DNA from: an uncultured Methanosarcinales archaeon
GTDB lineage: Archaea > Nanobdellota > Nanobdellia > Woesearchaeales > JACPBV01
Length of the DNA stretch: 64,000 bases
Assembly: GCA_964618315.1 (NCBI GenBank)
Contig: CAZTWQ010000003.1
Span: 17,215-81,214, forward strand
Direction: 5' to 3'
Part shown: piece by piece, positions 2,249 to 64,000 of the stretch
Layout: each line of letters opens with the position of its first letter
How positions within the stretch are numbered: position 1 is the stretch's first letter
The notes under the pieces: model-generated
The model's database searches: none
The model's input: the letters and a program-made list of their open reading frames with translations, nothing else
What the model was told of the DNA's origin: nothing
Translations under genes and position numbers: made by a program

Positions 2249-2938
2249 ATGAAAGCAATTATCTTAGCAGCAGGAAAAGCAACAAGATTGCTCCCTTTAA
2301 CTAAAGATACCCCTCAATGTCTACTAAAGATAAACAACAAAACAATTCTAGAAAAACAAATTGAATACCTAAACCACGCAGGAATCAACGATATAACAAT
2401 AATAACAGGTTATCTATCAGAACAAGTAGAGGCATTCTGTAAAAAACTGGGCATAAATACATTTTTTAACCCATTTTATGATGTTTCCGGTATGGCCCTC
2501 ACACTATGGGTTGCTAAAAAAGAATTGACAGATGACTTCATACTAACTTATTCAGATGTTTTGTTTGATCCTATATTAATAAAAGACCTATCAAAAAATG
2601 ATGGAGAAATCTGCTTAGCCATAAAAAAAGACAACCTAAGAGAAGAAGCAGAAAAAGTTATAGAAGAATCAAACATAATAAAAAATGTAAGTAAAGTTAA
2701 AATCCCTGGAGAAAATGGTGAATTTATAGGCATATCAAAATTCTCAAAACAAGGTTCTAATAAATTGATTAAAGAGTTAAACAAAGTATCAAAAAACAAC
2801 ATAAATTCTTCATTCATAGATGTTATTGACAATATTATAAAAGAAGGGGGTATAATTAAAGCTCATGATATAGGTAATTCTTCATTTCTAGATATTGATT
2901 TCCCAGAAGATCTAGAAAAAGCAAAAAAAATATTCTAA
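2249..2938 (+). CDS. Alcohol/sugar-phosphate nucleotidyl(cytidylyl)transferase, LicC/PntC-like
   Basis: N-terminus MKAIILAAGKATRLLPLTKDTPQCLL is the GxGTRL loop of the NTP_transferase fold. Single domain of about 230 aa, as in LicC/PntC-type enzymes. Substrate not determinable from sequence alone. Confidence 0.75.
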   Translation: MKAIILAAGKATRLLPLTKDTPQCLLKINNKTILEKQIEYLNHAGINDITIITGYLSEQVEAFCKKLGINTFFNPFYDVSGMALTLWVAKKELTDDFILTYSDVLFDPILIKDLSKNDGEICLAIKKDNLREEAEKVIEESNIIKNVSKVKIPGENGEFIGISKFSKQGSNKLIKELNKVSKNNINSSFIDVIDNIIKEGGIIKAHDIGNSSFLDIDFPEDLEKAKKIF

Positions 2939-2943
2939 TTAAT

Positions 2944-3618
2944 TCACACTTCAATATCTCTATCCTTCAAATAATCTCCAAATTCTTTATAATAATAAGC
3001 AAACCAACTAGCTTGTTTAACCAAAAACAAAAGAATTGTCAATATCAAAACAGGCAATAATGTAATCTCCTTTACCTGGATAAAATAAGGCAATAATGGA
3101 ACTAAAACAAAAGATATAGTTCTGCTATCCTCAAAATTCAAAAATTGCTGATATTTTCTTGCTCTTTCTTTCCTTAAAAAAAGCATTACTACACTAGTCT
3201 GTAAGGGATGAATAATAGACATAATAATCAACAAAGGTATCAAAAAAAGAATTATAGTCTTATCCATAGGATAAATCAAAGCAATCGGTATAATTGCCGT
3301 ACCGATGTAACCAGTAACATTATCTAAATACATACCCAATTTTGAAGATTTATTCTTCAATCTAGCCACTTTACCATCAATATAATCCAAAATATACCTC
3401 ATAAGGTAACATAAACTACCAAATAAGAATAATCCCTTAAAGAAAAAAACAGCACTACCAATTAAAAATACAAAAGACAAGATAGTCACAAAATTAGGAC
3501 TAAAATTAGTAAAATTAATAATCAACCAAGCGAGTCTGTTTATTAAAGGATTTAAAATAATATTAAAATAGGGGGGAGATTTGTGTCCAGCCTTATCAAT
3601 ATCATCTAAAGTAAACAT
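2944..3618 (-). CDS. CDP-alcohol phosphotransferase family membrane protein
   Basis: Multi-TM protein with DYIDGKVARLKNKSSKLGMYLDNVTG (DxxDGxxARx8GxxxD; the last canonical Asp is replaced by Gly). Strong SD GGAGGTGA upstream of the ATG. Confidence 0.8.
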   Translation of the reverse strand: MFTLDDIDKAGHKSPPYFNIILNPLINRLAWLIINFTNFSPNFVTILSFVFLIGSAVFFFKGLFLFGSLCYLMRYILDYIDGKVARLKNKSSKLGMYLDNVTGYIGTAIIPIALIYPMDKTIILFLIPLLIIMSIIHPLQTSVVMLFLRKERARKYQQFLNFEDSRTISFVLVPLLPYFIQVKEITLLPVLILTILLFLVKQASWFAYYYKEFGDYLKDRDIEV

Positions 3619-5130: not shown

Positions 5131-5131
5131 A

Positions 5132-6046: not shown

Positions 6047-6072
6047 GTATAAATTAAATCCATATCCTTAAA

Positions 6073-7515: not shown

Positions 7516-7516
7516 T

Positions 7517-21330: not shown

Positions 21331-21334
21331 TATA

Positions 21335-36451: not shown

Positions 36452-37168
36452 CTATTTCTTAACTGAATCTGTAGATAAAAAAGTTGATCTAACATTAAAT
36501 ATTATCCTAACTAACTCAACAAAAATATTAAGAAAATAAAAAATTAAGATAATCTTCAAATTAAATAACACAATAAAAGGAAAAATATAATAATTAAAAT
36601 TGATAAGTGCAACAATAATTTTAGATAAAAGAGAATATTTTGACTTTAAACCTTGTTTTGAAGATTGATATGTATCAGAAGAACATACGGCTTCGCAATA
36701 ATAATAATTCTTACCCCTATCCCCTGGATGAATAATTAAAGTGATGTAATCCCTTATGACCATCAAGGTAACCAAAGAGAAAGCCACTATAAGTATATTT
36801 AATTCCCCATAATAAAAAAATAAGCCCAAGGGCAATATAAAATGAAACAGCTTAATAGTAAAGATATCTGTAATCAAATCTAATTTTGCACCAACCTTTG
36901 AAGTTTGCCCTGTAACTCTAGCAACAGGACCATCGCACCAATCTAATATAAAACCCAGGAAATATAATATAACTGCTGGAATCTTTAAGAATATGAAATA
37001 GAAATACAACCCAACAAAAGAGATAAAAGTGCCAAGAAAAGTTATTGTATTTGGCTTCACCTTTAATTTCAAAAAAACCCAGATAAAAGGAAGAGTTAGA
37101 AATCTATTTATCCTCCTATGAAGGAATTTATAATCTGCAGGTTTTGCATATTCTTTAAAAAGTCCCAT
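36452..37168 (-). CDS. CDP-alcohol phosphotransferase family membrane protein (canonical motif)
   Basis: DWCDGPVARVTGQTSKVGAKLDLITD, the complete DxxDGxxARx8GxxxDxxxD motif. Confidence 0.8.
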   Translation of the reverse strand: MGLFKEYAKPADYKFLHRRINRFLTLPFIWVFLKLKVKPNTITFLGTFISFVGLYFYFIFLKIPAVILYFLGFILDWCDGPVARVTGQTSKVGAKLDLITDIFTIKLFHFILPLGLFFYYGELNILIVAFSLVTLMVIRDYITLIIHPGDRGKNYYYCEAVCSSDTYQSSKQGLKSKYSLLSKIIVALINFNYYIFPFIVLFNLKIILIFYFLNIFVELVRIIFNVRSTFLSTDSVKK

Positions 37169-37304: not shown

Positions 37305-38012
37305 ATGATAATTGCAATAGATGGAAAATATGGTGTTGGAAAAACAACAACCGCAAAATGCTTAGCAAGAAGATTAGGATACAATTACCTCAGTACTGGA
37401 GCTATATTTAGGGCAATTGCACTTAAAGTTATAGAAGTAAAAATAGAAAAAGAAGACAAAGAAGCAATAATAAAAATTGCAAAAGAGATAAATATTGAAG
37501 TAAAACAGATCGACAAAGAAACAAAAATCTTTATCGATGGAAAAGATTTAACAGAAAAAGCATATACCCATAATGAAAAAATTGACTCAGTAACATCCTA
37601 CCTTGGAAGAAACATACCTGAAGTTACTGAAATAATAACAAAACTGCAGAGGGAGATTGCCAAGAGCGGAAACTTTATTTTCGAAGGAAGAGACATGACA
37701 TCAAGAGTTTTCCCAAACGCAGACTGGAAATTCTACATACAAGCAGAGATGATGAAAAGAGCTGAAAGGATGTATAAAATTCTCCCCGATGAAGAAAAAG
37801 AAACCTATCCCACCATAGAAGATTACTCTAAACTAGATCATTTTCATAAAGAATACCCTGGAGCAGAAGACGCTATTGTCTATGACAACACATATAGCCC
37901 AACACCTGAACAAGATGCGATTGTCCTTGAATATTATATAACTCATCCTAAAGAAATATTAGGGAATATCGGTAAAATAAAAGATAAAAAAGAACCAATA
38001 AAAAATAACTAA
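37305..38012 (+). CDS. cmk: Cytidylate kinase (type 1-like) with C-terminal extension
   Basis: MIIAIDGKYGVGKTT P-loop; YLSTGAIFRAIA (compare YLDTGAMYRA). Confidence 0.75.
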   Translation: MIIAIDGKYGVGKTTTAKCLARRLGYNYLSTGAIFRAIALKVIEVKIEKEDKEAIIKIAKEINIEVKQIDKETKIFIDGKDLTEKAYTHNEKIDSVTSYLGRNIPEVTEIITKLQREIAKSGNFIFEGRDMTSRVFPNADWKFYIQAEMMKRAERMYKILPDEEKETYPTIEDYSKLDHFHKEYPGAEDAIVYDNTYSPTPEQDAIVLEYYITHPKEILGNIGKIKDKKEPIKNN

Positions 38013-40352: not shown

Positions 40353-40370
40353 TTAAATTCCCATCATTTC

Positions 40371-40994
40371 CTAATCATTCAATATGTCTATAAGCAGCAG
40401 CACAAGCTTATCAAATCTTTCTTTCCCTATTTTTACTTTTTGAACTGGAGTCATCTTCACAAACTCCCCCCCAGTAGAATCCTTAATCACTTCTTTTCTT
40501 CCAAAAGAACTATCAACAGTACTTGGCTGCCCAATATTTCCCCTAAAAGGATATATTTTGATATGTAAATGCTCTTTTTTTTCTTTCCATGTCGTGCATT
40601 TTCCATATGTGCCTATAGAAATCGCCATCCCCCTATCTTCAGATATAGCCTTTAATTCTTGGTCCTGTATCATCACTACAGTCATTGCCCTACATATATT
40701 AGAAAATATTACACCATAATTTTCAGCTAATTTAGGATAAAAACTTATTTGAGAAAAATGAGTAAGGTGAGAAAAAGGCATCAACTGTATTGTAAAATCT
40801 AACTTGAGGTCTCCCCCAGTTTTTGGAGATAAAGTAGCAAACCACCCATCTTTTAAATTTCCTACCTTGCATATCACTGCACCATATCCAGTCTTTTCAC
40901 CAATACTGTATTTGACTTCTTTACACAGATTACATCCATCAACAAGAGTAACATCTTCATTAAATAATTTATCAGCTTCTTCAGATTTATACAT
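40371..40994 (-). CDS. HIT-superfamily-like protein with variant HxHxK motif
   Basis: CNLCKEV near the N-terminus, LSPKTGG...IQLMPFSHL, and EHLHIKIYPF in the position of the histidine triad. ATG 40994 is preceded by GGGGAT. Confidence 0.5.
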   Translation of the reverse strand: MYKSEEADKLFNEDVTLVDGCNLCKEVKYSIGEKTGYGAVICKVGNLKDGWFATLSPKTGGDLKLDFTIQLMPFSHLTHFSQISFYPKLAENYGVIFSNICRAMTVVMIQDQELKAISEDRGMAISIGTYGKCTTWKEKKEHLHIKIYPFRGNIGQPSTVDSSFGRKEVIKDSTGGEFVKMTPVQKVKIGKERFDKLVLLLIDILND

Positions 40995-40995
40995 T

Positions 40996-42084
40996 TTAAT
41001 CCCCAATTACCCTGATATACTCATCATTCTTCCTCTCACTCAGGTAAGCATCAAAATATCCTACAACCACCCTATAATATTTCCCCCCTTTAATAGGGGT
41101 CACTTCTTCAACCACCCCACTTACCTCAACTGTCTCCCCTTCATAAGCAAGCATACAATAATCCCTAGAATAAAAAGCAATTTTATCTATAAGCAAATCT
41201 TTGCAGGAATCATCTCCAGAAATGAATTTTGAGTTAGAAATTGTATAACAACCAGGCCTCACAACCGAACTTTTATTATCTTTAACCAGCCCTTCAAATT
41301 TAGCTATCCCTAATTTCCTATACTTCTCTTCACCCCACTTAAACCAAGTTTCATCTTCATTCTCAACAGCAAATATTACAAACAAAGTTCCTTTAAAGAA
41401 ACCTTCAGATTTTTTCCTATACATATTCTCAATATATATCTCTTTCTTATGTATAACATGTCTATTTCTTTTCTTATAGAAAGCTTCCCATTCTTCATAA
41501 GTCTTCCATCTTAAATCTGGATGATCATTCTTTTTTAAAAACTCCATCAATTCCCAGAAGTTTTCCTTACCATATACAACTATATTTACATCAGATATAT
41601 TAGGAGAGTAATGCCCCATAAGGGTAGAATAGGTAATACCAAAATCCTTTAATTCTAGGCCGCTCTTAAGAATAAATGAAACAAACTGGGCAACTGTCTT
41701 AAGATGCTCATCCAAATCTCTCTCAGGCATACTCATAAGGTCAGCAAGTCCTTCTTTAGGAGAATAAATCCTTTCTATATTATTCTTTGAAACAATAAAG
41801 AACAATGGACTTTCTTCATGTATTGGGCTCTTGAATATATATTCAGAATAAGCTCCAGTAAATGTTTGAATATATTGTTTAAGCTCATCTTTATCTATCC
41901 AAAGATTAAGTCTGTTCATCTTCTTTCCAGAAATAAACCTGTAGGGTAAAAAATCACATGAAATCTTATCAGTAGGTATATACTTAGGCTTGACTAAAAT
42001 CCCTTCTTCAGGATGTTCATTCCCATATACTTGGCAATGAATTCCGTCAACGGTTGTTATTATTGTAGATTCGTAGAAATGCAT
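40996..42084 (-). CDS. Pol-beta-superfamily nucleotidyltransferase, COG1665-like, paralog B (degenerate DxN)
   Basis: FGITYSTLMGHYSPNISDVNIVVYG (second Asp replaced by Asn). N-terminus HFYESTIITTVDGIHCQVYGNEHP...KPKYIP and C-terminus YYRVVVGYFDAYLS are shared with paralog A. Confidence 0.6.
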   Translation of the reverse strand: MHFYESTIITTVDGIHCQVYGNEHPEEGILVKPKYIPTDKISCDFLPYRFISGKKMNRLNLWIDKDELKQYIQTFTGAYSEYIFKSPIHEESPLFFIVSKNNIERIYSPKEGLADLMSMPERDLDEHLKTVAQFVSFILKSGLELKDFGITYSTLMGHYSPNISDVNIVVYGKENFWELMEFLKKNDHPDLRWKTYEEWEAFYKKRNRHVIHKKEIYIENMYRKKSEGFFKGTLFVIFAVENEDETWFKWGEEKYRKLGIAKFEGLVKDNKSSVVRPGCYTISNSKFISGDDSCKDLLIDKIAFYSRDYCMLAYEGETVEVSGVVEEVTPIKGGKYYRVVVGYFDAYLSERKNDEYIRVIGD

Positions 42085-42086
42085 TT

Positions 42087-43187
42087 TTACAATCCAGATT
42101 TAATAAACTCAGCCTCCCTCCTATCACTAACATAAGCATCGAAATAACCGATTACAACCCTATAATATCTATCACCAATTGTGGGAGTCACCAATTCAAG
42201 CAACCCGCATGCAGTTATCTCTTCCCCGGTCAAAGCTTGCTGCACAAATGGGATTGAATATGTAACTACCCTCTTAATCCCTAAAGAACCATCAACATCC
42301 ATATCTTTTCCATGATTATCTGTTATTTTACCATCTATAATCTCATAATATCCTGGCCTTACATGACTATTATAATGATCTATAACTTTCCCTTTCACTG
42401 TAACAAGTCCCATAGGCTCATACTTCTCTTCTCCCCACTTAAACCAAGTCTCTTCTGGTTCTTCAACAGTAAACAATGTAAAAACTGTATCCCCAAACAT
42501 GCCCTCATACTTCTTTCTTTTCATATGCTTAACATATTCTTCCTCAGTAAAATGAGATGATTCTGAAGTCTTATGCTCTTTATAATATTCTGCCCATTCT
42601 TCATCAGTTTTCCATTTTAACAAAGAATGCTTTGCATCCTTCAAATAATCAAGTACTCTCCACCCATTATCTTTGCCATATACTATTAAATCTATATCAG
42701 ATCTACCTGGAGTATAATTTCCAAGTAGAGTAGAATGAGTTATCCCTAAATCAGTAGACTTAACTCCACTATTTGTCAATAATTCAACCAATTCAACAAC
42801 AAGAGTAAGATACTTATCTAGGTCATTTTTAGGCACTTTCAAAAGCTCTTGAAGCCCTTTTCTACTATCATGTACTTTTTTTATCTTGCTTTTAGGAACA
42901 ACAAAGAACCAGTTATCATGAAATTTAGAATCATGTATATAATCAGGAAATTTTTGTCTAAACTGCTTTAGATATTCATTAACATTATCCTTTTTTGCAA
43001 AAAGATTGAATCTTACAAAACATTTTTCAAAAAGAAACCGATACTTCAGACCTTCTCCTTTTATCGCATCCTGAGGAATATACTTAGGTTTTACTATCAC
43101 ATATCCTTCAGGATGTTCATTTGCATAAGATTTACACTGAAATCCATCTACAGTATCTATCAATATCGATTCATAAAAATGCGCCAA
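42087..43187 (-). CDS. Pol-beta-superfamily nucleotidyltransferase, COG1665-like, paralog A (canonical DxD)
   Basis: LGITHSTLLGNYTPGRSDIDLIVYG. TTG 43187 with AGGTGAT SD 5 nt upstream gives an N-terminus (M)AHFYES parallel to paralog B. The track start is GTG 43196. Confidence 0.6.
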   Translation of the reverse strand: MAHFYESILIDTVDGFQCKSYANEHPEGYVIVKPKYIPQDAIKGEGLKYRFLFEKCFVRFNLFAKKDNVNEYLKQFRQKFPDYIHDSKFHDNWFFVVPKSKIKKVHDSRKGLQELLKVPKNDLDKYLTLVVELVELLTNSGVKSTDLGITHSTLLGNYTPGRSDIDLIVYGKDNGWRVLDYLKDAKHSLLKWKTDEEWAEYYKEHKTSESSHFTEEEYVKHMKRKKYEGMFGDTVFTLFTVEEPEETWFKWGEEKYEPMGLVTVKGKVIDHYNSHVRPGYYEIIDGKITDNHGKDMDVDGSLGIKRVVTYSIPFVQQALTGEEITACGLLELVTPTIGDRYYRVVIGYFDAYVSDRREAEFIKSGL

Positions 43188-43378
43188 ATATATCACCTAA
43201 TGCCCTTACAATCAATATTTTGGAGTAATTGTCGATATATAAATGTTATTAATTCATAATACATAATAGTTAATTTAAAGCATAAATTACAGTTTACTAT
43301 AAGGTTATTACTTAAAGTAACTAAAAAATAAGTAAAAAACAAATCATTTATAAATATAATTTACTTTTTTAATATTAA

Positions 43379-44809
43379 ATGTCATCAGCAAAAAAGATTG
43401 CAAAAAACACGGGTTTTTTGTTTTCAAAGGATATAATCGACAAAGTAATGTCATTTATCCTAGTTATAATAATAACAAGGTACTTAGGTAGTGCTGGGTT
43501 TGGAAAATATTCTTTTGCTTTTGCCTTTATCGGTCTGTTTATCATGTTCTCGCATTTTGGACTTACTACATATATGTTTAGAGAGATTGCAAAAGACAAA
43601 ACCCGAGCCAAAAAACTTGCAGACAATATTTTTACGCTAAAACTTTTCCTTCTGATTAGTGTTTATATTATCCTAGCGATAATCGCATGGAACTTTCCAA
43701 AAACCAAAGAAATCATGCTATTAATATTCCTTGTAATGGTACATGAATTCTTTGCAGTACTCAATACATTGATGGGCACAATATTCAAAGCGTATGAAAG
43801 AAATGAATTTGGCATATATTCTACAATCATTGATAAAAGCCTAGCATTACTTCTGGGGTCATATGCCCTCATAAGTGGTTATGGCATACATACACTAGTC
43901 ATAGCATTAATATTAGCAAAATTGAGTTCATTTGTATTCCGTTTCTGGATTATTTACAAAAAATTCATTAAAATCTCCATTGAAATTGATGTAAAATTCT
44001 GGAAAATCCTGATTAAAAACTCCATCCCATTCTGGCTAACAATGGTATTCCAAAGAATATATTACCGCATTGACACAGTAATGCTTACAAGTATGAAGGG
44101 TTATGTAGTAACCGGCTGGTATAATGCAGCCTCCACACTGATTGGAGCCCTCACATTTATCCCCACTGTAATCATGAGCGCAAGCTTCCCTGCATTATCC
44201 AGATTCTATCACATAAACGCAAAAGACCTATCCAAATTATTATACAAAAAAACGTTCTATTATCTTCTTTCAATTGGAATACCGATAAGTATTGGAATAA
44301 GCCTGTTATCACAACGCATAATCCTATTAATCTACAAAGAGAACTTTATTGGGTCCAGCATAGCACTCCAAATTTTATCATGGTCACTATTCCTTGTTTT
44401 TATAAACCAAGTAATGGGCTTCTTCCTAAACTCCATAAACAAACAGCATTTATTTACTTTATCTGCAGGTATCTGTGCATTATCAAATATAATCCTAAAC
44501 TTTATTCTAATCCCCAAATTAAGTTATATAGGTGCAGCAACAGCAACAGTAATAACTCAGTTTATTAACTTCTGCCTATTGTATTATTTCACAAGAAAAC
44601 ATGGATATCCATTAAATTTGATAAAAATAAGTTACAAACCAATAATTGCAGGTATACTCATGGGTGTTTTGATACCATATATCAAATTCTTACATGCAAT
44701 ATACATAATACCTATTGCTGCTGTTGCTTATTTTATCGCACTAATCTCAATAGGGGGCATAGGAAAAGAAGAGATTAAATTGATAAAATCATTCTTACCC
44801 AAATCTTAA
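43379..44809 (+). CDS. MOP-superfamily polysaccharide flippase (Wzx-like)
   Basis: 476 aa, 12-14 TM helices. N-terminus IAKNTGFLFSKDIIDKVMSFILVIIITRYLGSAGFGKYSFAF is typical of polysaccharide biosynthesis (Wzx) proteins. Confidence 0.8.
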   Translation: MSSAKKIAKNTGFLFSKDIIDKVMSFILVIIITRYLGSAGFGKYSFAFAFIGLFIMFSHFGLTTYMFREIAKDKTRAKKLADNIFTLKLFLLISVYIILAIIAWNFPKTKEIMLLIFLVMVHEFFAVLNTLMGTIFKAYERNEFGIYSTIIDKSLALLLGSYALISGYGIHTLVIALILAKLSSFVFRFWIIYKKFIKISIEIDVKFWKILIKNSIPFWLTMVFQRIYYRIDTVMLTSMKGYVVTGWYNAASTLIGALTFIPTVIMSASFPALSRFYHINAKDLSKLLYKKTFYYLLSIGIPISIGISLLSQRIILLIYKENFIGSSIALQILSWSLFLVFINQVMGFFLNSINKQHLFTLSAGICALSNIILNFILIPKLSYIGAATATVITQFINFCLLYYFTRKHGYPLNLIKISYKPIIAGILMGVLIPYIKFLHAIYIIPIAAVAYFIALISIGGIGKEEIKLIKSFLPKS

Positions 44810-44872: not shown

Positions 44873-46372
44873 ATGAGAGTATGTTTAATTAATCCTGGAA
44901 GAACCTATTATGAAAAATCTTCTTCTGTATCTAATGTGGATATAGGCTTGCCTTTAGGGATAATGTATCTTGCCTCATTTCTAGAAAAAAAAAACCACGA
45001 TGTCAAGATAATAGACTCATTAGTAATGGATGAAGCTGTTCTAGAAACAATAGACAACTCTAGAAGAAGATACGGCGCTCCATTAAAAATTATTAAATCA
45101 GAAGTTGAGAAATTCAAGCCAAATATTATAGGTGTTTCGAATCTTTTTAGTTCCCAGATAATTGATGCTGTAGAAACCACCAAAGCTATGAGGGAAATAT
45201 ATCCTACTATCCCACTTGTGATTGGGGGACCCCACGTAACTGTAAAAGGAAAAGAGTTTATGAAAAAAAATAAGCATATTGATTTTGCCCTACTAGGTGA
45301 AGCAGAAAACTCTTTTTCAGATTTATTATATCATATAGATGGCAAAAAGAATATAACAGATATTGATGGAATCATCTATAGAAAAAATGATAATATAATT
45401 GAAAACAAAAAATTAAGATTTATAAAAAATCTAGATGACTTGCCATTTCCAGCCTACCATTTAGTAGATATGGAAAAATATTTATCTTTATCTGAAAAAG
45501 GAATATACTCTAGGTCTATAGATGAAGAAAGAAGCATTTCAATAATTACCAGCAGGGGTTGCCCTTATAACTGTATATTTTGTTCTATCCACTGCCATAT
45601 GGGCAAGGAATGGAGACCCCACTCTGCACAATATGTTATAGACCACATAAAACATGTAGTTAACAAATACAAAATTAAACATATCCATTTTGAGGACGAC
45701 AATCTTACTTTAGACCTAAAAAGGTGCGGAAAAATTTTGGACGGCATTATTGAAAATAACCTTAATATCAAGTGGGATACCCCTAATGGCGTTAGAGCAG
45801 ATCGATTTAATGAAGAAATCGCTTTGAAGATGAAAAAATCAGGATGCACCAAACTTACAATGGGTGTAGAATCAGGAGATCAGTCAGTACTGGACAATAT
45901 AATTCAAAAAAATCTTAAACTAGAAAACGCCATTAAGATGGCAAGGATATGTAAGAAATTTAATATACCATTAAGTGCATTTTATGTTATTGGATTTCCT
46001 GGAGAGAGAAAAGAGAATATAGAAAAAACAATTAAATTTGCCCTAATGCTCCAAAGAAAATATAATGTGATGCAAGGTGGAGCTTTCTACGCAACCCCAC
46101 TTTATGGTACAAGACTTTACAATATATGCAAAGAAAACTCATATCTTACTAAAGAGATAACCCCCCAAGCATTATCCGAAGCTACTGCAGCATATGGTAC
46201 AAGTTTAATAAAAACAGAAGACTTCTCCCCTGAATATCTAAAAAAAGCAAATCAAAGATTGATAAGAGCTAATTACCTCAACTACTTATATCACCCTACA
46301 AAAGCAATAAAGTTTCTGTTCAAAAACCCTAAAATTATATTCAGTGTATTAAACAGGTTTTTAGGAAGATGA
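44873..46372 (+). CDS. Radical SAM protein with B12-binding-type N-domain
   Basis: SRGCPYNCIFC, VIGGPHVTVKG, GVESGDQSVL, IGFPGERKE. Confidence 0.9.
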   Translation: MRVCLINPGRTYYEKSSSVSNVDIGLPLGIMYLASFLEKKNHDVKIIDSLVMDEAVLETIDNSRRRYGAPLKIIKSEVEKFKPNIIGVSNLFSSQIIDAVETTKAMREIYPTIPLVIGGPHVTVKGKEFMKKNKHIDFALLGEAENSFSDLLYHIDGKKNITDIDGIIYRKNDNIIENKKLRFIKNLDDLPFPAYHLVDMEKYLSLSEKGIYSRSIDEERSISIITSRGCPYNCIFCSIHCHMGKEWRPHSAQYVIDHIKHVVNKYKIKHIHFEDDNLTLDLKRCGKILDGIIENNLNIKWDTPNGVRADRFNEEIALKMKKSGCTKLTMGVESGDQSVLDNIIQKNLKLENAIKMARICKKFNIPLSAFYVIGFPGERKENIEKTIKFALMLQRKYNVMQGGAFYATPLYGTRLYNICKENSYLTKEITPQALSEATAAYGTSLIKTEDFSPEYLKKANQRLIRANYLNYLYHPTKAIKFLFKNPKIIFSVLNRFLGR

Positions 46373-46440
46373 CTTCAGATACATAAATTATTTAAATGGT
46401 CCAAAAAACTCATTTAATCACATAAAATCAGAAAAATAAA

Positions 46441-47172
46441 ATGGTATCATCAATAAAACAACTCAATAAACTTCTTGCTGAAAAGAACAAACCAATATTA
46501 TCCAGAACATTCAGATATCTCTCAATATTTTTAGCCAAACCCCTACTTTATACACCAATTACAGCAAACCAAGTTAGTTTTGTAAATCTTTTCCTACCAC
46601 TTATATCTGCTTTTTTATTTACATTTAACAATTATACATATTCAGTAATAGCAAGTCTAATCTTATTCTTTTCAGTAATTCTCGACTTTGTTGATGGTGA
46701 TATTGCAAAATACAAAAAACAAAAGTCATTATATGGTGTATACCTCGAATGCCTATACCATGAAATAGCTATGCCCTTTGTTTTTTTAGGGCTAGGTATT
46801 AACGCATACAATCACTATAACAACAACCTGTTTATTTATTTGGGTGTTTTTGTTATCTTAATGGTCTTCATAATGAATATAGTAAGACTAAATAAATACA
46901 AGATTATCCTACAATCAAAGAAAGGATTAGATAAAGAATTCTCCCCTGCATTAGCAATGAAAAAGAACAAAACACATTTACAAAAAATAGTATTCTTCAT
47001 CATAGGCATATTCACCAAAATCACTATGTTTTGGCTTGTGATGCTCTTATTTTCCGTATTTAACTTACTGCATTATGCAATAAGCCTTTACGCTATTTTT
47101 TACCTGATTATTGGTACTTCTAAAATATTTATTGAACTAAGAACAGGTTTTAAGGAATTTGAGAATGGCTAA
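46441..47172 (+). CDS. CDP-alcohol-phosphotransferase-like membrane protein, divergent motif
   Basis: DFVDGDIAKYKKQKSLYGVYLECLYH: DxxDGxxA retained, but R is replaced by K and the last two Asp by E and H. 6-7 TM helices. Confidence 0.6.
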   Translation: MVSSIKQLNKLLAEKNKPILSRTFRYLSIFLAKPLLYTPITANQVSFVNLFLPLISAFLFTFNNYTYSVIASLILFFSVILDFVDGDIAKYKKQKSLYGVYLECLYHEIAMPFVFLGLGINAYNHYNNNLFIYLGVFVILMVFIMNIVRLNKYKIILQSKKGLDKEFSPALAMKKNKTHLQKIVFFIIGIFTKITMFWLVMLLFSVFNLLHYAISLYAIFYLIIGTSKIFIELRTGFKEFENG

Positions 47173-48634
47173 AGTTCTATTGATTAATCCCCAGGCAGAA
47201 ATTGGGAAGAAAGTTAAAGGGGGTATTGCTGCTCCGCTTGGTTTGTTATCTATAGGTTCTTATGTAATCAAAAGGGGATATTCTGTTAAGATAATTAATA
47301 CAATACTTGAAAATGATCCTATGAGAAATGTATTAGATGAAACCAAAGAAGCAAAATACATTGGACTAAGTGTGATGACTGCCCAGATTACACATGCTTT
47401 AATCATGAGCGAGAAACTAAAATCTCTAGGAAAAATAATAATTTGGGGTGGAATCCATGGTGAACTATTCCCTAAACAAACATGTGAAGATTCAGCTATT
47501 GATTATGTCATTTGTGGGGAAGGAGAAGCAACTTTCTTTGAATTGATAGATTCTTTAGAAAAAGGAAAAAGTGTAGAAAATATCCCTGGATTAGTACATA
47601 AAAAAGAAAATAAAGTCATAGTTAATCCACCAAGAAAACCATTGCCAGTCGAAGCTTTCTCTGATATAGATTATGGGCTTCTTGATCTAGAAAGGAAATT
47701 CAAGAAAAAAAGGATGCTTGAATTTGAGACTTCAAGGGGTTGCCCTTACCGTTGTGGATTTTGTATAGATACAATAGGTTGGAGGCACAATTGGAGATCC
47801 TTACCTGCTGAAACTGTTTTAAATGATCTGGAAAAAATGAAAGATAAATACAAAATTGAAGAAATTATATTCAGAGAAGAAAATTTCTTTGTAAATCAAA
47901 AAAGAGCAGAAAAAATAATTGAAGGTATGATCAAAAAAGGATTAAATATAAAATGGTCAACAAATATTAGAGCAGAGTATTTTAAAGATGATTATGTAAA
48001 TGATGAATTTATGACAAAACTAAAAAAATCTGGTTTAACATCCCTTACATTCGGAGTTGAATCTGGATCTGAACGAGTCAGAGGATATATGAAAAAAGGT
48101 ATTACAAGTGAACAAGTATTTAGGGCTGTAAGTTATTGTAAAAAACATGATATCCATTGTAATATTACTTTTATGGTGGGTTATCCTACTGAAACAAAAA
48201 AAGAGATATTTGAAACAATAAATATGATCAATAAGATAATTAAAATACATCCAGACGTAACAATCCGTGGGCCAGTGCCTTTTATGCCCCTCCCTGGTGC
48301 TTCTATTTATCAATATTGTCTTGATTGCGGTTTTAAAGAACCTAAAACCTTAAGAGAATGGTCCAAACGTGAATTTGATTTGCTGTCATATTTTAAAGAA
48401 TATTGCGCTGATAGTAATTTTTTAGGTGTTGATAAAAAAGACCGTTATCTTATAGAAAATATTGGCAAATACTCCACCCTAGCTACCAGTTCATGGGGTA
48501 GAATTATGAGCTTCTCACCATTATTAATATTACCTACACTATTATGTAAAATCAGATGGAAGTTAAAATTCTTTAGATTCCCTATTGATTATAAGTTGTA
48601 TAAATGGGTGACTAAAAAACTCCCAGTATATTAA
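47165..48634 (+). CDS. Radical SAM protein with B12-binding-type N-domain
   Basis: SRGCPYRCGFC, IWGGIHGELFP, GVESGSERV, VGYPTETKKE. ATG 47165 (track TTG 47159) overlaps the upstream gene end. Confidence 0.9.
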   Translation: MAKVLLINPQAEIGKKVKGGIAAPLGLLSIGSYVIKRGYSVKIINTILENDPMRNVLDETKEAKYIGLSVMTAQITHALIMSEKLKSLGKIIIWGGIHGELFPKQTCEDSAIDYVICGEGEATFFELIDSLEKGKSVENIPGLVHKKENKVIVNPPRKPLPVEAFSDIDYGLLDLERKFKKKRMLEFETSRGCPYRCGFCIDTIGWRHNWRSLPAETVLNDLEKMKDKYKIEEIIFREENFFVNQKRAEKIIEGMIKKGLNIKWSTNIRAEYFKDDYVNDEFMTKLKKSGLTSLTFGVESGSERVRGYMKKGITSEQVFRAVSYCKKHDIHCNITFMVGYPTETKKEIFETINMINKIIKIHPDVTIRGPVPFMPLPGASIYQYCLDCGFKEPKTLREWSKREFDLLSYFKEYCADSNFLGVDKKDRYLIENIGKYSTLATSSWGRIMSFSPLLILPTLLCKIRWKLKFFRFPIDYKLYKWVTKKLPVY

Positions 48635-48674
48635 AAATGAAAAGTATATAAAGTAATTCAAATATAATTAAAAA

Positions 48675-49340
48675 ATGAAGAAAAAAATACCTAATAAAAT
48701 TGACAGGGACCTCGTATTTAGATATTTCTCCAGACCCATTGGAAGATTACTTATCAAACCAGCCTATTATTTAGGTATAACCAGCATCCAATTAAGTTTA
48801 TTCATGATGTTTCTCACTTTATTTAGTTTTGGGCTTATAGCATATGGGAAGATAATATTAGCCACAATTTTACTCCAATTCTGCATAATTCTCGATATGA
48901 TGGACGGAACAATGGCAAAATTAAGAAACCAACAATCTGTATATGGCAGATTCTTATCAGCTATATGGCACAACAACATAATGCCATTATTCTTTCTGGC
49001 TGTAGGATTCCATTCATACAAATTAAACAACAATATAATATTTTTAATCATAGGTATACTTACAAGTCTTTTCATAATATCAATAAACTTAACAGAATAT
49101 CTTAAAAGAACACTTATGTACAAATTTAGTTTGTTAAAACCATCTGGAAAATCAAAAAAATATCCTAAACTTAGATTAGATGAATGGATTATAATGCTTA
49201 TTGCAGGCACAGGCTATATATTTACCTATGCATTGATACTTTCATTCTTTGGCTGGCTCCACTATATGACAATACCTTACTTCATATTCTACACTACATT
49301 ATTCACTGCAAAATCCATTATCTTTCTAAAGAAGTTTTAG
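48675..49340 (+). CDS. CDP-alcohol-phosphotransferase-like membrane protein, divergent motif (paralog of 46441..47172)
   Basis: DMMDGTMAKLRNQQSVYGRFLSAIWH: the same AK / ...H variant as the paralog. Confidence 0.6.
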   Translation: MKKKIPNKIDRDLVFRYFSRPIGRLLIKPAYYLGITSIQLSLFMMFLTLFSFGLIAYGKIILATILLQFCIILDMMDGTMAKLRNQQSVYGRFLSAIWHNNIMPLFFLAVGFHSYKLNNNIIFLIIGILTSLFIISINLTEYLKRTLMYKFSLLKPSGKSKKYPKLRLDEWIIMLIAGTGYIFTYALILSFFGWLHYMTIPYFIFYTTLFTAKSIIFLKKF

Positions 49341-50573: not shown

Positions 50574-51989
50574 TTAATTATCTTTACTAAATTTAAAAAT
50601 GCCTTTAAGTAGCGGCAAAGCGGTCCGTATAGTCCATTTTAGTTCCCTCATTGACTTAATCAAAAACAAAAACTCAAAAATCTTTGAAGGTCTGAAATAA
50701 AAGCTTGTATACGCTTTTCTTTGATACTTCAATACTTCTTTACTCTTTAAATCACCTAATTCATAATGCCCTTCATTAATAGTATAATACCCCTTATCAA
50801 CACTAGAAGCATCCCTAACAAATTTCCCTTGTTTTTTTATCATCTCAAAAAGCTCTGTATCCGGCATAGGAATAGTGATTGCAAAATTTGCTATATGTGG
50901 ATTTGCTTTCTTTGCAAAATCTATTGTTCTCTGCATAGTCTCAGAATTATCTCCAGGTAAACCCAACATAAAGAACCCAAAAACAGTAATCTTCTCTTCC
51001 CTAAACCACATTATTGCCTGAACAACCTTATCAAGATCCAAATTTTTCTTTATATTTTTCATAATTCCTGGATCTCCAGTTTCTATACCTACCCCTACTT
51101 TATACACCCCAACTTTTTTCATCTTACATACAATCCCCTTAGTTAACCTATCTGCTCTAAGCCCATTAGGAAATGTTATATGCACTTTTATCTTTCTTTC
51201 AATAAGCATATCTAATATTCTTTCTGCCCTTTCAAGATCTAAGGTAAAATTATCATCTAAAATATCTATTTGTTTAACATTATATTTATTAACCAAAAGT
51301 TCTATTTCATCAATAATATTTTCTGGTGAACGTTTCCTAAACTTGCTTCCAAAAATATTCTTATTACAATATACACATTGATATGGACAACCCCTGCTTG
51401 TTAATACAGGAGCAACAGGACTTTCCCTGGACCTGCTTTCATAAAGTTTCAAATCTGGAAGAAGATGATAAGCTGGAAAAGGAATCATATCCAGATCCTC
51501 AATAAGGCTTTCTCTTGGATTATTCACTATTTCTCCCTTTCGAATATAGCTAACCCCCCTCATACCATCTAAATTTCCTTCATTCTTAACAATATTCCAA
51601 AACACCAATTCCCCTTCCCCCATTACAACACAATCTGCTTCTGATTCATCCAAGGTCTCCTTTACCATTGAAGTTGCAAAAGGCCCCCCAATCACAACAA
51701 ATTTTCCAATACTTTTCTTAAGAAATTTAGAAATCTGATTTGCATCTTTAGCATAAGCTATATTAGATGATATACCTATAAAATCTGGATCAAAATCCTC
51801 AATTAATTTTAGAATCTCATTATCTTCTAATCTAAGAAGATTTGCATCAATTATCTTACAATTTACCCCTTTTGATTCAAGAAATGACGCTATATAAGCT
51901 AATCCCAAAGGGGGGTAATTTGTTGCCTCATTTATCTCCCTTGCAAAGAAAGGAAATGGCCTGATAAGCACTACTCTTTTAAAAGTCAT
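50574..51989 (-). CDS. Radical SAM protein with B12-binding-type N-domain
   Basis: SRGCPYQCVYC, VIGGPFATSMV, GIETGDPGIM, LGLPGDNSE. Confidence 0.9.
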   Translation of the reverse strand: MTFKRVVLIRPFPFFAREINEATNYPPLGLAYIASFLESKGVNCKIIDANLLRLEDNEILKLIEDFDPDFIGISSNIAYAKDANQISKFLKKSIGKFVVIGGPFATSMVKETLDESEADCVVMGEGELVFWNIVKNEGNLDGMRGVSYIRKGEIVNNPRESLIEDLDMIPFPAYHLLPDLKLYESRSRESPVAPVLTSRGCPYQCVYCNKNIFGSKFRKRSPENIIDEIELLVNKYNVKQIDILDDNFTLDLERAERILDMLIERKIKVHITFPNGLRADRLTKGIVCKMKKVGVYKVGVGIETGDPGIMKNIKKNLDLDKVVQAIMWFREEKITVFGFFMLGLPGDNSETMQRTIDFAKKANPHIANFAITIPMPDTELFEMIKKQGKFVRDASSVDKGYYTINEGHYELGDLKSKEVLKYQRKAYTSFYFRPSKIFEFLFLIKSMRELKWTIRTALPLLKGIFKFSKDN

Positions 51990-56155: not shown

Positions 56156-56171
56156 ATTCAACCACAACAAC

Positions 56172-58040: not shown

Positions 58041-58101
58041 TGTACCCCCTATCAAAAACAATCGAAACCTATATAAATAGTTTACTATAATCAAATATCT
58101 A

Positions 58102-63449: not shown

Positions 63450-64000
63450 TTATTCTTTCACCTTTACTTGCTTACCATAATTCATATAAAATCTTAACAT
63501 CCTTACTAACTCTTTCCTATTTTTTAACAAAGATAAAAAATAATTAATAATCTTAATATAAATATGTTTTTTTCTAAACAACATCACAGGATTAAATATG
63601 AAACTTATAAGATTCAATTTATAAGTATTAACAATATCTTTTAATCCTTTTTGGAGATCTTCATTTGAAAGGTCCTTTAACTTAAGATGCCCAAAATCAT
63701 AGCCAGTTATTCCGCCTTTAGTTTCAACAAGCATTCCTTCCTTCTCTGCTAGATTATACAAGTCTGTCCCATAAAGGGGCGTAGTTGCCGCTACAAAAAT
63801 AAAATCTGGTCGAGCCCTTTTTATGAAGTTTACAGTCTCTTGCAGCGTTTCATTAGTTTCACCTGGAGAACCTATCATAATATTTGCCCTCCCACAAATT
63901 CCTGCCTGCTCTGCCCACTTTATTGCTTGCTCTGCCTGCTCAACCTTAGTTCCTTTTCTCAACATATTCATGATCTTCTGTGAACCACTTTCTATACCAT
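63450..64000 (-). CDS. Radical SAM protein, C-terminal part only (5' end beyond the window)
   Basis: The frame stays open to the window edge: GIESGSQKIMNMLRKG...IGSPGETNETL...TPLYGTDLYNL. These are the same C-terminal blocks as the six B12-type rSAM proteins. Confidence 0.8.
   Translation of the reverse strand, partial: GIESGSQKIMNMLRKGTKVEQAEQAIKWAEQAGICGRANIMIGSPGETNETLQETVNFIKRARPDFIFVAATTPLYGTDLYNLAEKEGMLVETKGGITGYDFGHLKLKDLSNEDLQKGLKDIVNTYKLNLISFIFNPVMLFRKKHIYIKIINYFLSLLKNRKELVRMLRFYMNYGKQVKVKE

What the first reader, a model, noticed from the sequence alone, without database searches (positions are those of the whole stretch)
44873..49340. Tandemly duplicated module: B12-type radical SAM + divergent CDP-alcohol-transferase-like membrane protein (x2)
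Seen in sequence: the order is rSAM (44873..46372), CDP-AP-like (46441..47172), rSAM (47165..48634), CDP-AP-like (48675..49340). All four are on the + strand and the junctions are a 68-nt gap, an 8-nt overlap and a 40-nt gap. Both membrane proteins keep DxxDGxxA but share the same non-canonical remainder (AK instead of AR; final acidic residues replaced: ...GVYLECLYH / ...GRFLSAIWH). The two other family members in the window (2944..3618 and 36452..37168) are near-canonical.

Established knowledge: CDP-alcohol phosphotransferases transfer a phospho-alcohol from a CDP/CMP-activated donor. The class B rSAM Fom3 methylates a cytidylylated substrate (HEP-CMP) in fosfomycin biosynthesis.

Inference: each pair may be a 'modify the CMP/CDP-activated head group by radical chemistry, then transfer it' unit generating two related glycan or lipid decorations. 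I am not aware of such pairing being characterised.
Basis: partly seen in the sequence, partly recalled or inferred. Interest (0 to 1): 0.7.

Follow-up and report, generated by a model that had tools for sequence, protein, structure and literature searches.

The report
Interleaved radical-SAM and His-variant CDP-alcohol transferase genes
Four genes in a surface-sugar gene island of a tiny DPANN archaeon alternate between B12-type radical SAM enzymes and unusual membrane transferases. The alternation is a local gene-order quirk, not a conserved two-gene unit. The transferases do belong to a large unstudied branch of their family in which the catalytic aspartate is replaced by histidine.

Summary
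Both membrane proteins are CDP-alcohol phosphotransferases by Pfam score and predicted fold, closest to AF2299 and IPCT-DIPPS.

The "duplicated module" does not hold:
- Only the two transferases are paralogs (33% identity).
- rSAM_A is closer to three other B12-rSAMs in the window than to rSAM_B. The window has six B12-rSAMs in 59 genes.
- Of 92 non-redundant homologous loci of at least 8 kb, 14 have a B12-rSAM within 10 kb. None has the window's co-directional order.
- The closest relative (L083) has two tandem transferase genes and no rSAM.
- Seven orthologs of rSAM_A or rSAM_B in other genomes have no transferase nearby.

The conserved partner is a MobA-like nucleotidyltransferase (45 of 92 loci), sometimes fused to PEP mutase.

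Replacement of the catalytic Asp (D4) by His is subfamily-wide: 78% of top representatives, with 560 clusters at E≤1e-30. Arg→Lys and the change at D3 are peculiar to the window copies.

Most likely the two transferases add a CMP/CDP-activated phospho-alcohol or phosphonate group to a glycan intermediate, and the rSAMs tailor the same glycan independently. The Fom3-like coupling is possible but unsupported here.

The parts
43379..44809 (+). Wzx/MOP-type flippase, first gene of the co-directional five-gene block
   Evidence: It matches Pfam Polysacc_synt (106.7 bits), MurJ and MatE, and NCBIfam Wzx_EPS below cut-off. Its homolog in L083 is 66% identical and lies next to that locus's tandem CAP pair.
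44873..46372 (+). rSAM_A: class B (B12-binding domain) radical SAM enzyme of unknown substrate
   Evidence: It matches PF02310 (69 bits) and PF04055 (67.8 bits) and has a CxxxCxxC motif, CPYNCIFC. All NCBIfam equivalogs score far below cut-off; the best is the Sden_1168 P-methyltransferase family at 199 bits against 575. More than 100 full-length homologs share 45-57% identity. None of four ortholog contexts has a CAP.
46441..47172 (+). CAP_A: His-variant CDP-alcohol phosphotransferase (DxxDGxxAK...G...E...H)
   Evidence: It matches PF01066 at 41.7 bits. The AF2 model has pLDDT 82 and pTM 0.76. The top Foldseek hit is AF2299, 4o6n, with TMq 0.62. The subfamily profile hits AF2299 at E 2.6e-21, and His107 aligns with D4. 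His is invariant in alignment A1.
47165..48634 (+). rSAM_B: class B radical SAM enzyme, not a sister paralog of rSAM_A; its start overlaps the CAP_A stop by 8 nt
   Evidence: It matches PF04055 (83.5 bits) and PF02310 (51.8 bits) and has the motif CPYRCGFC. Its identity to rSAM_A is 28.6%. Its orthologs share 53-64% identity in Nanoarchaeota and about 38% in Patescibacteria. None of three ortholog contexts has a CAP.
48675..49340 (+). CAP_B: divergent, partly degenerate His-variant CDP-alcohol phosphotransferase (DxxDGxxAK...G...S...H; the TM1 cytosine-binding Asn is Ile)
   Evidence: It matches PF01066 at 29.9 bits. The AF2 model has pLDDT 78 and pTM 0.71. The top Foldseek hits are AF2299 and IPCT-DIPPS. 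Its closest known relative is CAP_A at 86 bits, against 79 bits for the best external hit.
50574..51989 (-). rSAM_C: third B12-rSAM, in the convergent operon; the closest window paralog of rSAM_A
   Evidence: It matches PF04055 and PF02310. It scores 217 bits against rSAM_A.
2249..2938 (+). MobA-like NTP transferase, a candidate maker of the cytidylylated donor (inferred); it is homologous to the NTases that accompany the CAP subfamily elsewhere
   Evidence: It matches PF00483 and PF12804. Homologs occur in 45 of 92 CAP loci, and 41 lie within 3 kb of the CAP. It shares 30-37% identity with the NTase domains in L084, L092 and L096. It sits between a PhnD-type ABC transporter and CAP_C.
2944..3618 (-). 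CAP_C: AF2299-like family member outside the His subfamily; D4 is Gly
   Evidence: It matches PF01066 at 44.6 bits. Its motif is DYIDGKVAR..G MYL D NVT G. It scores 38 bits against the A1 profile.
36452..37168 (-). CAP_D: canonical-motif CDP-alcohol phosphotransferase
   Evidence: It matches PF01066 at 40.7 bits. Its motif is DWCDGPVAR..G AKL D LIT D.
37305..38012 (+). Cytidylate kinase, possibly recycling the CMP released by the CAP reactions (inferred)
   Evidence: It matches PF02224 at 135 bits. It is 39% identical to the CMP kinase inside the L084 phosphonate/CAP cluster.

Best explanation
The region is one operon (Wzx flippase, rSAM_A, CAP_A, rSAM_B, CAP_B) inside a large, shuffled cell-surface glycan island of a DPANN (Nanoarchaeota) archaeon.

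CAP_A and CAP_B are two paralogous, fast-evolving members of a large uncharacterised clade of six-TM, AF2299/DIPPS-like CDP-alcohol phosphotransferases. In this clade the catalytic-base Asp (D4) is replaced by an invariant His.

Inferred mechanism: a MobA-type cytidylyltransferase makes a CMP/CDP-linked phospho-alcohol or phosphonate. The candidate in the window is 2249..2938. Each CAP binds the cytidine nucleotide through D1, D2 and a metal ion. With His acting as general base, the CAP transfers the phospho(no)-head group to a hydroxyl of a lipid-linked glycan or other acceptor at the cytoplasmic face. CMP is released, and Wzx then flips the product.

The two class B radical SAM enzymes are independent glycan or sugar tailoring enzymes, probably C-methyltransferases. 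They come from two different orthologous groups that elsewhere occur without CAPs. Their interleaving with the CAPs is a lineage-specific gene order in an island unusually rich in B12-rSAMs. It is neither a conserved two-gene functional unit nor a duplicated module.

Shown: family, fold, motif states, paralogy and neighbourhood statistics. Inferred: donor, acceptor, the role of His and the rSAM chemistry.
For: - Family and fold.
- His at D4 is invariant in alignment A1 and present in 110 of 141 top representatives. The subfamily has 560 clusters at E<=1e-30.
- The NTase is the dominant neighbour: 38 of 80 loci, with 17 directly adjacent, and 45 of 92 non-redundant loci.
- A PEP-mutase signature lies within 10 kb in 17 of 160 loci, mostly His-class. 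L084 is a full phosphonate cluster with a His-class CAP.
- B12-rSAM proximity is low: 14 of 92 loci, or 1.2 rSAM genes per 100 kb against 9.4 in the window. Direct adjacency occurs in 3 of 160 loci, always on the opposite strand.
- L083 has Wzx (66% identity) plus tandem CAPs and no rSAM.
- The rSAM orthologs sit among GT4, GT2, Wzx, epimerase, DegT, GT9 and PMT_2 genes with no CAP in any of 7 contexts.
- rSAM_A and rSAM_B are not sister paralogs.
- The window is a glycan island: 6 GT2, 4 GT4, GT9, epimerases, DegT, FdtA and methyltransferases.
Against: - The four genes are tightly packed, with an 8-nt overlap between CAP_A and rSAM_B. They are therefore almost certainly co-expressed and act on the same product, and direct substrate hand-off cannot be excluded.
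- A strictly alternating run arises in only 0.34% of gene-order shuffles.
- A minority of loci place a B12-rSAM within 1 kb of a CAP (L021, L032, L024, L084, L092, L101), sometimes together with an NTase.
- CAP_B has lost several normally essential residues (R to K, D3 to S, TM1 Asn to Ile) and may not be an active transferase.
- No donor-forming gene lies in the operon itself.
- No biochemical data exist for any member of the His clade.
Confidence: 0.6

Rival explanations
1. Each rSAM modifies a CMP/CDP-activated head group by radical, Fom3-like chemistry, and the downstream CAP transfers the modified group. The two pairs would then yield two related decorations.
For: - The genes are co-directional and tightly packed, and one junction overlaps.
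- The CAP subfamily uses cytidylylated donors, judging from its NTase partners.
- Fom3 requires the CMP moiety of HEP-CMP, and Fom1 is a cytidylyltransferase-PepM fusion (PMC9088020).
- L084/L002 combines a Ppm-cytidylyltransferase fusion, Ppd, two B12-rSAMs and a His-class CAP.
- L092 has the order NTase, rSAM_A-like gene (37% identity), CAP.
- rSAM_A's best NCBIfam hit is a phosphonate P-methyltransferase family, although far below cut-off.
Against: - No PEP mutase or Ppd is present in the window, and no NTase lies in the operon.
- Co-directional rSAM-to-CAP order is absent from 160 loci.
- The closest CAP relative has no rSAM.
- None of 7 rSAM orthologs has a CAP nearby.
- The rSAMs are not paralogous as a pair.
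- Most Ppm-containing CAP loci have no rSAM.
- The window's other four B12-rSAMs sit next to sugar-nucleotide enzymes such as DegT, FdtA, GT2 and epimerases. This fits sugar tailoring as their general role.
Confidence: 0.17
2. CAP_A, and especially CAP_B, are catalytically inactive pseudo-enzymes. They would serve as membrane anchors or scaffolds for the soluble rSAMs or other glycan enzymes.
For: - The family's eight signature residues are described as absolutely conserved, and a D4-to-Asn mutation abolishes activity (PMC4634129).
- Both window copies break three of the eight positions (R to K, D3, D4).
- Arg-to-Lys was seen only in the two window proteins among 141 top representatives.
- CAP_B also lacks the TM1 Asn that binds cytosine.
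- CAP_B is a fast-evolving orphan.
Against: - His at D4 is conserved across hundreds of clusters together with D1, D2, G and A. This indicates purifying selection on a working active site.
- His is a competent general base.
- CAP_A keeps a carboxylate (Glu) at D3, as do 21 of 141 relatives.
- The subfamily's consistent pairing with cytidylyltransferases implies real nucleotide-linked chemistry.
Confidence: 0.12
3. The CAPs are membrane phospholipid head-group synthases, as their database names suggest ('phosphatidylglycerophosphate synthase'). The rSAMs would then modify lipids.
For: - JGI names these proteins phosphatidylglycerophosphate synthase.
- Weak NCBIfam hits point to archaetidylinositol-phosphate and PIP synthases.
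- Some class B rSAMs act on lipids, and there are HpnJ, HpnR and ladderane-type NCBIfam hits below cut-off.
- Two HpnL/LPG_synthase_TM genes lie in the window.
Against: - All NCBIfam scores are far below cut-off, for example 43 bits against 180.
- The nearest solved relatives are AF2299 and IPCT-DIPPS, which use soluble substrates, not CDP-DAG enzymes.
- The conserved partner is a soluble-substrate NTase.
- The genomic setting consists of glycosyltransferases, a flippase and sugar-nucleotide enzymes.
Confidence: 0.08

Closest known systems
AF2299 (Archaeoglobus fulgidus CDP-alcohol phosphotransferase; PDB 4o6m, 4o6n, 4q7c)
   Same: It is the best sequence-profile hit (E 2.6e-21) and the best fold hit for both CAPs. 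It shares the six-TM core, the D1xxD2GxxA segment and an N-terminal 'T(P/A)NQ(I/V)(T/S)' cytosine-binding motif.
   Different: AF2299 has the full canonical signature (…AR…G…D…D) and an N-terminal cytoplasmic domain. The window proteins lack that domain and carry Lys for Arg, Glu or Ser at D3 and His at D4. The physiological substrates of AF2299 are themselves unknown (my knowledge).
IPCT-DIPPS (bifunctional inositol-1-phosphate cytidylyltransferase / di-myo-inositol-phosphate-phosphate synthase; PDB 4mnd)
   Same: It is the second-best solved relative. It shows the same logic of an NTase that makes a soluble CDP-alcohol and a six-TM CAP that transfers it. That logic matches the NTase-CAP neighbourhood statistics.
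   Different: In IPCT-DIPPS the NTase and CAP are fused and the motif is canonical. Here they are separate genes, the window operon has no NTase, the motif is the His variant, and the setting is a glycan island rather than osmolyte synthesis.
Phosphonyl-tailoring / phosphonolipid clusters (pepM, ppd, AEPT, NTP transferase/PntC, CDP-alcohol phosphatidyltransferase, hpnL)
   Same: These are known clusters in which a CAP-family protein accompanies a cytidylyltransferase that activates a phosphonate (PMC5987646; PMC6697681). Seventeen related loci carry a PEP-mutase signature, and L084 is a full example. The window has a PhnD-type transporter, an NTase, a CAP and two HpnL-like genes.
   Different: The window has no PEP mutase or Ppd. 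The known Rhodospirillales-type clusters recovered here carry canonical-Asp CAPs. The window's CAPs are His-class and sit with rSAMs and a flippase.
Fom1/Fom3 of fosfomycin biosynthesis
   Same: A class B rSAM (Fom3) acts on a cytidylylated substrate made by a cytidylyltransferase-PepM fusion (PMC9088020). L084 has an analogous fusion plus B12-rSAMs.
   Different: The fosfomycin pathway has no membrane CAP transferase, and the CMP is later hydrolysed off. rSAM_A and rSAM_B show no specific affinity for any characterised phosphonate methyltransferase model and are not linked to phosphonate genes in the window.

Membership tests
CDP-alcohol phosphotransferase family (Pfam PF01066) | Score above the Pfam gathering threshold | tested here: met
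   CAP_A scores 41.7 bits and CAP_B 29.9 bits against a cut-off of 22.
CDP-alcohol phosphotransferase family (Pfam PF01066) | Six-TM helical fold with the active site on TM2/TM3, as in AF2299, DIPPS and PIPS | tested here: met
   The AF2 models have pLDDT 82 and 78. The top Foldseek hits are AF2299, IPCT-DIPPS and PIPS, with probability 1.0 and TMq 0.62-0.68.
CDP-alcohol phosphotransferase family (Pfam PF01066) | Eight 'absolutely conserved' signature residues D1xxD2G1xxAR...G2xxxD3xxxD4 (PMC4634129) | tested here: not met
   D1, D2, G1, A and G2 are kept. R is replaced by K in both copies. D3 is E in CAP_A and S in CAP_B. D4 is H in both. D4-to-His is the norm in this subfamily, at 110 of 141 representatives.
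CDP-alcohol phosphotransferase family (Pfam PF01066) | P(D/N)xx(T/S) motif on TM1 that binds the cytosine ring (PMC4634129) | tested here: inconclusive
   CAP_A and the subfamily have A-N-Q-V-S/T, so N and S/T are kept and P is replaced by A. CAP_B has S-I-Q-L-S, so Asn is lost.
CDP-alcohol phosphotransferase family (Pfam PF01066) | Phospho-alcohol transfer from a CDP-linked donor with release of CMP | not testable with these tools
   This needs a biochemical assay. The only support is indirect: the conserved cytidylyltransferase-type neighbour.
Class B (cobalamin-domain) radical SAM enzymes | N-terminal B12-binding domain, a radical SAM core and a CxxxCxxC cluster motif | tested here: met
   Both proteins match PF02310 and PF04055. 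The motifs are CPYNCIFC and CPYRCGFC.
Characterised class B rSAM equivalogs (PhpK/Sden_1168 P-methyltransferases, HpnJ, BchE, BzaD, etc.) | Score at or above the NCBIfam curated cut-off | tested here: not met
   The best hit for rSAM_A is 199 bits against 575. The best for rSAM_B is 137 bits against 481. PDB hits are weak, at E 1e-9 to 1e-18, to 9ccb, AprD4, TokK and OxsB.
Fom3-type 'modify a cytidylylated phosphonate' system | PEP mutase, Ppd and a cytidylyltransferase in the same cluster as the rSAM | tested here: not met
   None of the 59 window proteins has the EDKxxxxxNS signature. The nearest NTase of the CAP-associated type (2249..2938) is about 42 kb away. The feature is met in the relative L084.
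   Forward test: a B12-rSAM lies within 10 kb in 14 of 92 non-redundant loci, is directly adjacent in 3 of 160, and is never co-directional upstream. Reverse test: none of 7 rSAM ortholog contexts contains a CAP.
Tandem duplication of a two-gene unit | Both gene pairs are each other's closest paralogs, or there is residual DNA similarity | tested here: not met
   The CAPs meet it (33% identity, mutual best hits within the window). The rSAMs do not, because rSAM_A is closer to rSAM_C, rSAM_2 and rSAM_3. There is no DNA similarity.

The most novel reading that the evidence does not exclude
The His-for-Asp(D4) proteins form a functionally distinct, widespread clade found in DPANN, Asgard, CPR, Omnitrophota, KSB1, Planctomycetes and Dehalococcoidia. 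They would be membrane transferases that install phosphonate or unusual phospho-alcohol groups from CMP/CDP-activated donors onto cell-surface glycans, using histidine as the catalytic base. In this Nanoarchaeota genome the interleaved class B rSAMs would act on the cytidylylated donors, as Fom3 does. The organism may import the head group through its PhnD-type transporter rather than make it. The operon would then produce two radical-modified surface decorations.
Probability: 0.15. Interest if true: 0.65.

Novelty: new variant of a known kind. Interest (0 to 1): 0.35.

Why it matters
The proposed rSAM-plus-transferase module would have been a new biosynthetic logic, but the comparative evidence does not support it as a conserved unit.

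What remains is still of interest. A large, uncharacterised clade of CDP-alcohol phosphotransferases breaks the family's 'absolutely conserved' signature at the catalytic base, with His in place of Asp. It has 560 clusters at E<=1e-30 among 50%-identity representatives. It is consistently partnered with cytidylyltransferases, which in some lineages are PEP-mutase fusions.

Characterising one member would do three things:
- Test whether His can replace the catalytic Asp in this fold.
- Assign a function to thousands of genes that carry automatic phospholipid-synthase or other generic names where they are named at all, as the window copies ('phosphatidylglycerophosphate synthase') do.
- Possibly reveal how host-dependent DPANN archaea and CPR-like bacteria decorate their surfaces with phospho- or phosphono-groups.

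Tried and rejected
- DNA-level duplication: blastn of the two halves found nothing above noise.
- RNA elements: there are no tRNAs and no Rfam hits in the window.
- Taxonomic label from the source record: the exact protein is found only on unnamed contigs. Taxonomy is therefore inferred from the best homologs, which are Nanoarchaeota and Woesearchaeota.
- Word-indexed homolog search for CAP_A: it gave only 10 hits. The exhaustive profile search was needed to see the size of the family.
- Fom3-specific affinity: no Fom3 model or structure was available. One homolog carries the automatic name '2-hydroxyethylphosphonate methyltransferase' (P0198). I treat this as uninformative auto-annotation.
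- A sulfate-activation link: the window, L010 and L001/L018 place an APS kinase (a PHP domain only in L010) near a His-class CAP, but this holds for only 5 of 146 loci. I rejected it as a general partner.
- The conserved unknowns upstream (unk369, unk362, unk211, unk302) and three large membrane proteins: they have no Pfam, NCBIfam or PDB sequence hit.
- Active-site geometry: the model coordinates could not be read from the sandbox. The equivalence of His and D4 therefore rests on the profile alignment to AF2299.
- Literature: searches for a described rSAM-CAP pairing or for B12-rSAMs in DPANN glycan clusters found nothing relevant.

Full report
**Observation.** rSAM_A is at 44873..46372. A 68-nt gap separates it from CAP_A at 46441..47172. 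CAP_A overlaps rSAM_B by 8 nt; rSAM_B starts at ATG 47165 (an in-frame TTG lies at 47159) and ends at 48634. A 40-nt gap separates it from CAP_B at 48675..49340. Pfam assigns B12-binding plus Radical_SAM domains to both rSAMs. It assigns CDP-OH_P_transf to both membrane proteins, at 41.7 and 29.9 bits against a cut-off of 22. The quoted motifs are correct. Three corrections apply. The two other family members are on the minus strand. CAP_C (2944..3618) has Gly at D4, so only CAP_D is canonical. A Wzx-type flippase (43379..44809) heads the same co-directional block.

**Is it a duplicated module?** No.
- The two halves share no DNA similarity.
- The two CAPs are paralogs, with 33% identity over 230 residues and E 4e-25. 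They are far from CAP_C and CAP_D.
- The two rSAMs share only 28.6% identity. rSAM_A scores higher against three other B12-rSAMs in the window: rSAM_C 217 bits, rSAM_2 214 and rSAM_3 184, against 167 for rSAM_B.
- The window contains six B12-rSAMs, at 6073, 26834, 29335, 44873, 47165 and 50574, plus a SPASM rSAM, among 59 genes.
- The rest of the window is a glycan island. It holds six GT2, four GT4, GT9, several epimerases/dehydratases, DegT, FdtA, UDP-glucose dehydrogenase, methyltransferases, DUF2079, PMT_2-like proteins and two LPG_synthase_TM proteins.
- With that density, at least two CAPs touch an rSAM in 17% of random gene orders. A strict alternating run occurs in 0.34%.

**What the membrane proteins are.**
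- A profile of CAP_A, CAP_B and eight homologs (A1) hits AF2299 at E 2.6e-21 and IPCT-DIPPS at 4e-10 among solved structures.
- The AlphaFold models are confident, with pLDDT 82 and 78 and pTM 0.76 and 0.71. Both retrieve AF2299, IPCT-DIPPS and PIP synthases as top Foldseek hits. The fold is therefore not in doubt.
- The profile alignment places the invariant His (H107 in CAP_A) on AF2299's fourth signature Asp.
- The literature describes the eight signature residues as absolutely conserved. D1-D3 bind the metal, D4 is the catalytic base, and a D4-to-Asn mutation is inactivating (PMC4634129).
- An exhaustive profile search of 1.84 billion representatives finds 13,061 relatives at E≤1e-3, 6,321 at ≤1e-10 and 560 at ≤1e-30.
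- Among the 141 best representatives with a parsable motif, the D4 position is His in 110. D3 is Asp in 109 and Glu in 21. Arg is kept in 138. Lys at that position occurs only in the two window proteins.
- The His is therefore a clade character. The Lys, the Ser of CAP_B at D3, and CAP_B's loss of the cytosine-binding Asn on TM1 are local peculiarities.
- CAP_A has closer relatives elsewhere, at 145 bits to L083. CAP_B's nearest known relative is CAP_A, at 86 bits against 79 for the best external hit. CAP_B looks like a fast-evolving duplicate.

**Forward neighbourhood test.**
- Scans of species-representative genomes and of metagenomes gave 160 loci. They span DPANN, Asgard, CPR, KSB1, Omnitrophota, Planctomycetes, Dehalococcoidia and Alphaproteobacteria.
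- After removing duplicates there are 146 distinct focal proteins, 92 of them with at least 8 kb of context.
- A homolog of the window's MobA-like NTase (2249..2938) is present in 45 of the 92 loci. Forty-one such homologs lie within 3 kb of the CAP.
- An unbiased clustering of neighbours ranks NTase first, at 38 of 80 loci with 17 directly adjacent. Next come a class I methyltransferase (24), GT4 (23), epimerase (20) and GT2 (10). The B12-rSAM cluster appears in 7.
- B12-rSAMs occur within 10 kb in 14 of the 92 loci. That is 1.2 genes per 100 kb, against 9.4 per 100 kb in the window.
- They are directly adjacent in only three loci, always on the opposite strand. They are never in the window's co-directional rSAM-to-CAP order.
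- The closest CAP_A relative is in L083, whose Wzx is 66% identical to the window's. L083 has two tandem His-class CAPs with no rSAM. It does carry a TagD-like cytidylyltransferase, a HAD protein, a P-loop kinase and an oxidoreductase.

**Reverse neighbourhood test.**
- rSAM_A belongs to a well-conserved orthologous group, with more than 100 full-length homologs at 45-57% identity across Bathyarchaeia, Nanoarchaeota, Argoarchaeum and Acidobacteria.
- In four contexts its orthologs sit among GT4, GT2, Wzx, epimerase, DegT and UDPG-dehydrogenase genes, or in arrays of B12-rSAMs. None has a CAP.
- rSAM_B has 53-64% identical orthologs in Nanoarchaeota and about 38% identical ones in many Patescibacteria.
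- Three of its contexts show GDP-mannose-dehydratase-like and epimerase genes, a GT2-PMT_2-GT9 block, LPG_synthase_TM and other rSAMs. Again none has a CAP.
- That GT2-PMT_2-GT9 block lies at 12-20 kb in the window. The island has therefore been rearranged between related genomes.
- Both rSAM families behave as general glycan-cluster tailoring enzymes that have been juxtaposed with the CAP pair in this lineage.

- Seventeen of the 160 loci, mostly His-class, have an ORF with the PEP-mutase signature within 10 kb.
- L084/L002 (Nanoarchaeia) is a complete phosphonate cluster. It holds a PEP_mutase-NTP_transf_3 fusion, a Ppd-like TPP enzyme, an aldehyde dehydrogenase, a second NTase, a CMP kinase, two B12-rSAMs, a His-class CAP and a GT4.
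- Fom1 is likewise a cytidylyltransferase-PepM fusion, and Fom3 needs the CMP moiety of HEP-CMP (PMC9088020).
- CAP plus NTP-transferase plus pepM/ppd/hpnL clusters are already known as phosphonolipid loci (PMC5987646). PntC-type cytidylyltransferases are established in phosphonate tailoring (PMC6697681).
- 'Cytidylylate, possibly modify, then transfer' is therefore a credible scheme for part of this subfamily.
- Against this, the window has no PEP mutase or Ppd. It has only a PhnD-type ABC transporter next to an NTase and CAP_C, a CMP kinase and two HpnL-like genes.
- Most Ppm-containing loci lack rSAMs.
- Neither rSAM reaches the cut-off of any characterised equivalog, and neither has more than weak similarity to solved class B enzymes.

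**Most likely mechanism** (inferred, about 0.6). The operon contributes to one surface glycan. CAP_A, and CAP_B if it is still active, transfers a phospho-alcohol or phosphonate head group from a CMP/CDP-linked donor to a glycan or lipid-linked intermediate at the cytoplasmic face. The donor would be made by a MobA-type cytidylyltransferase encoded elsewhere. His replaces Asp as the general base, and CMP is recycled by the cytidylate kinase. The rSAMs tailor sugars of the same glycan, and Wzx exports it.

Rivals:
- Pseudo-enzyme or scaffold CAPs, about 0.12. This applies mainly to CAP_B.
- Phospholipid head-group synthesis, about 0.08.

**Novelty and verdict.** The family, the fold and the NTase-CAP logic are known. 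The rSAM-CAP 'module' is not a conserved entity. The His-for-Asp clade of CDP-alcohol phosphotransferases appears uncharacterised and is large. I file the finding as a new variant of a known kind, with modest interest (0.35). The value lies in the transferase subfamily rather than in the proposed pairing.

Noticed in passing
window 6073-7515, 26834-28243, 29335-30681, 44873-46372, 47165-48634, 50574-51989 (plus SPASM rSAM 60520-61548 and an rSAM fragment 63450-63971): There are six B12-domain radical SAM genes in 64 kb, or 9.4 per 100 kb against 1.2 per 100 kb around CAP homologs elsewhere. Related archaeal loci such as L166 carry four within 13 kb. This large expansion of class B rSAMs sits in the glycan islands of organisms that are not expected to make cobalamin.
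   Followed up: partly
window 38943-43196 (- strand): 42087-43196, 40996-42084, 40371-41006, 38943-40352; compare L010 6205-9892: This is a conserved four-gene block. It holds two paralogous ~365-aa proteins with a weak Pol-beta-type nucleotidyltransferase signature, a 211-aa protein with an HxHxK-like motif, and a PHP-APS-kinase fusion. The first three have no Pfam or NCBIfam hit beyond one weak sub-threshold NTP_transf_2 match for the 369-aa protein, and that protein, the only one searched against the PDB, has no hit there either. In Woesearchaeota locus L010 the same block (45-74% identity) directly precedes a His-class CAP on the same strand. It may be an unrecognised activation system for sulfate or a nucleotide.
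   Followed up: partly
window 150-3618: A PhnD-type (Phosphonate-bd) ABC transporter lies immediately upstream of a MobA-like NTase and CAP_C, whose D4 is Gly. L001 also ends with a Phosphonate-bd gene next to a CTP_transf_like gene. This suggests uptake and cytidylylation of an external phosphonate or phospho-compound by a DPANN archaeon.
   Followed up: partly
L084 (= L002, L085) 227-11703: This Nanoarchaeia phosphonate biosynthesis cluster holds a PEP mutase-cytidylyltransferase fusion, Ppd, an aldehyde dehydrogenase, a second NTase, a CMP kinase, two B12-rSAMs, a xylose-isomerase-like TIM barrel, a His-class CAP and a GT4. Phosphonate biosynthesis in DPANN archaea seems little documented.
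   Followed up: partly
window 7508-9862 (+), 53816-56191 (-), 56172-58094 (-): Three large predicted membrane proteins (784, 791 and 640 aa) in the glycan island have no Pfam or NCBIfam match. They are candidate novel oligosaccharyl or polymerase-type enzymes.
   Followed up: no
window 20226-21802: An MNT/HEPN toxin-antitoxin-like pair and a Y2 transposase fragment sit in the middle of the glycan island. This fits the mosaic, rearranged gene order seen when the island is compared with L167-L169.
   Followed up: no
L167 2082-4187: In a related Nanoarchaeota contig the GDP-mannose-dehydratase-like gene is 701 aa. A faint LAGLIDADG_3 hit lies between its two epimerase halves, which suggests a possible intein. 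The window's counterpart (23197-24162, 321 aa) is uninterrupted.
   Followed up: no
L004 5369-8119; L096 7660-9135: The NTases next to His-class CAPs occur as varied fusions. L004 appears, from sequence motifs only, to have NTase-NTase-P-loop kinase-histidine phosphatase (916 aa). L096 has NTase-HAD (491 aa). This suggests the subfamily uses a range of different activated head groups.
   Followed up: no
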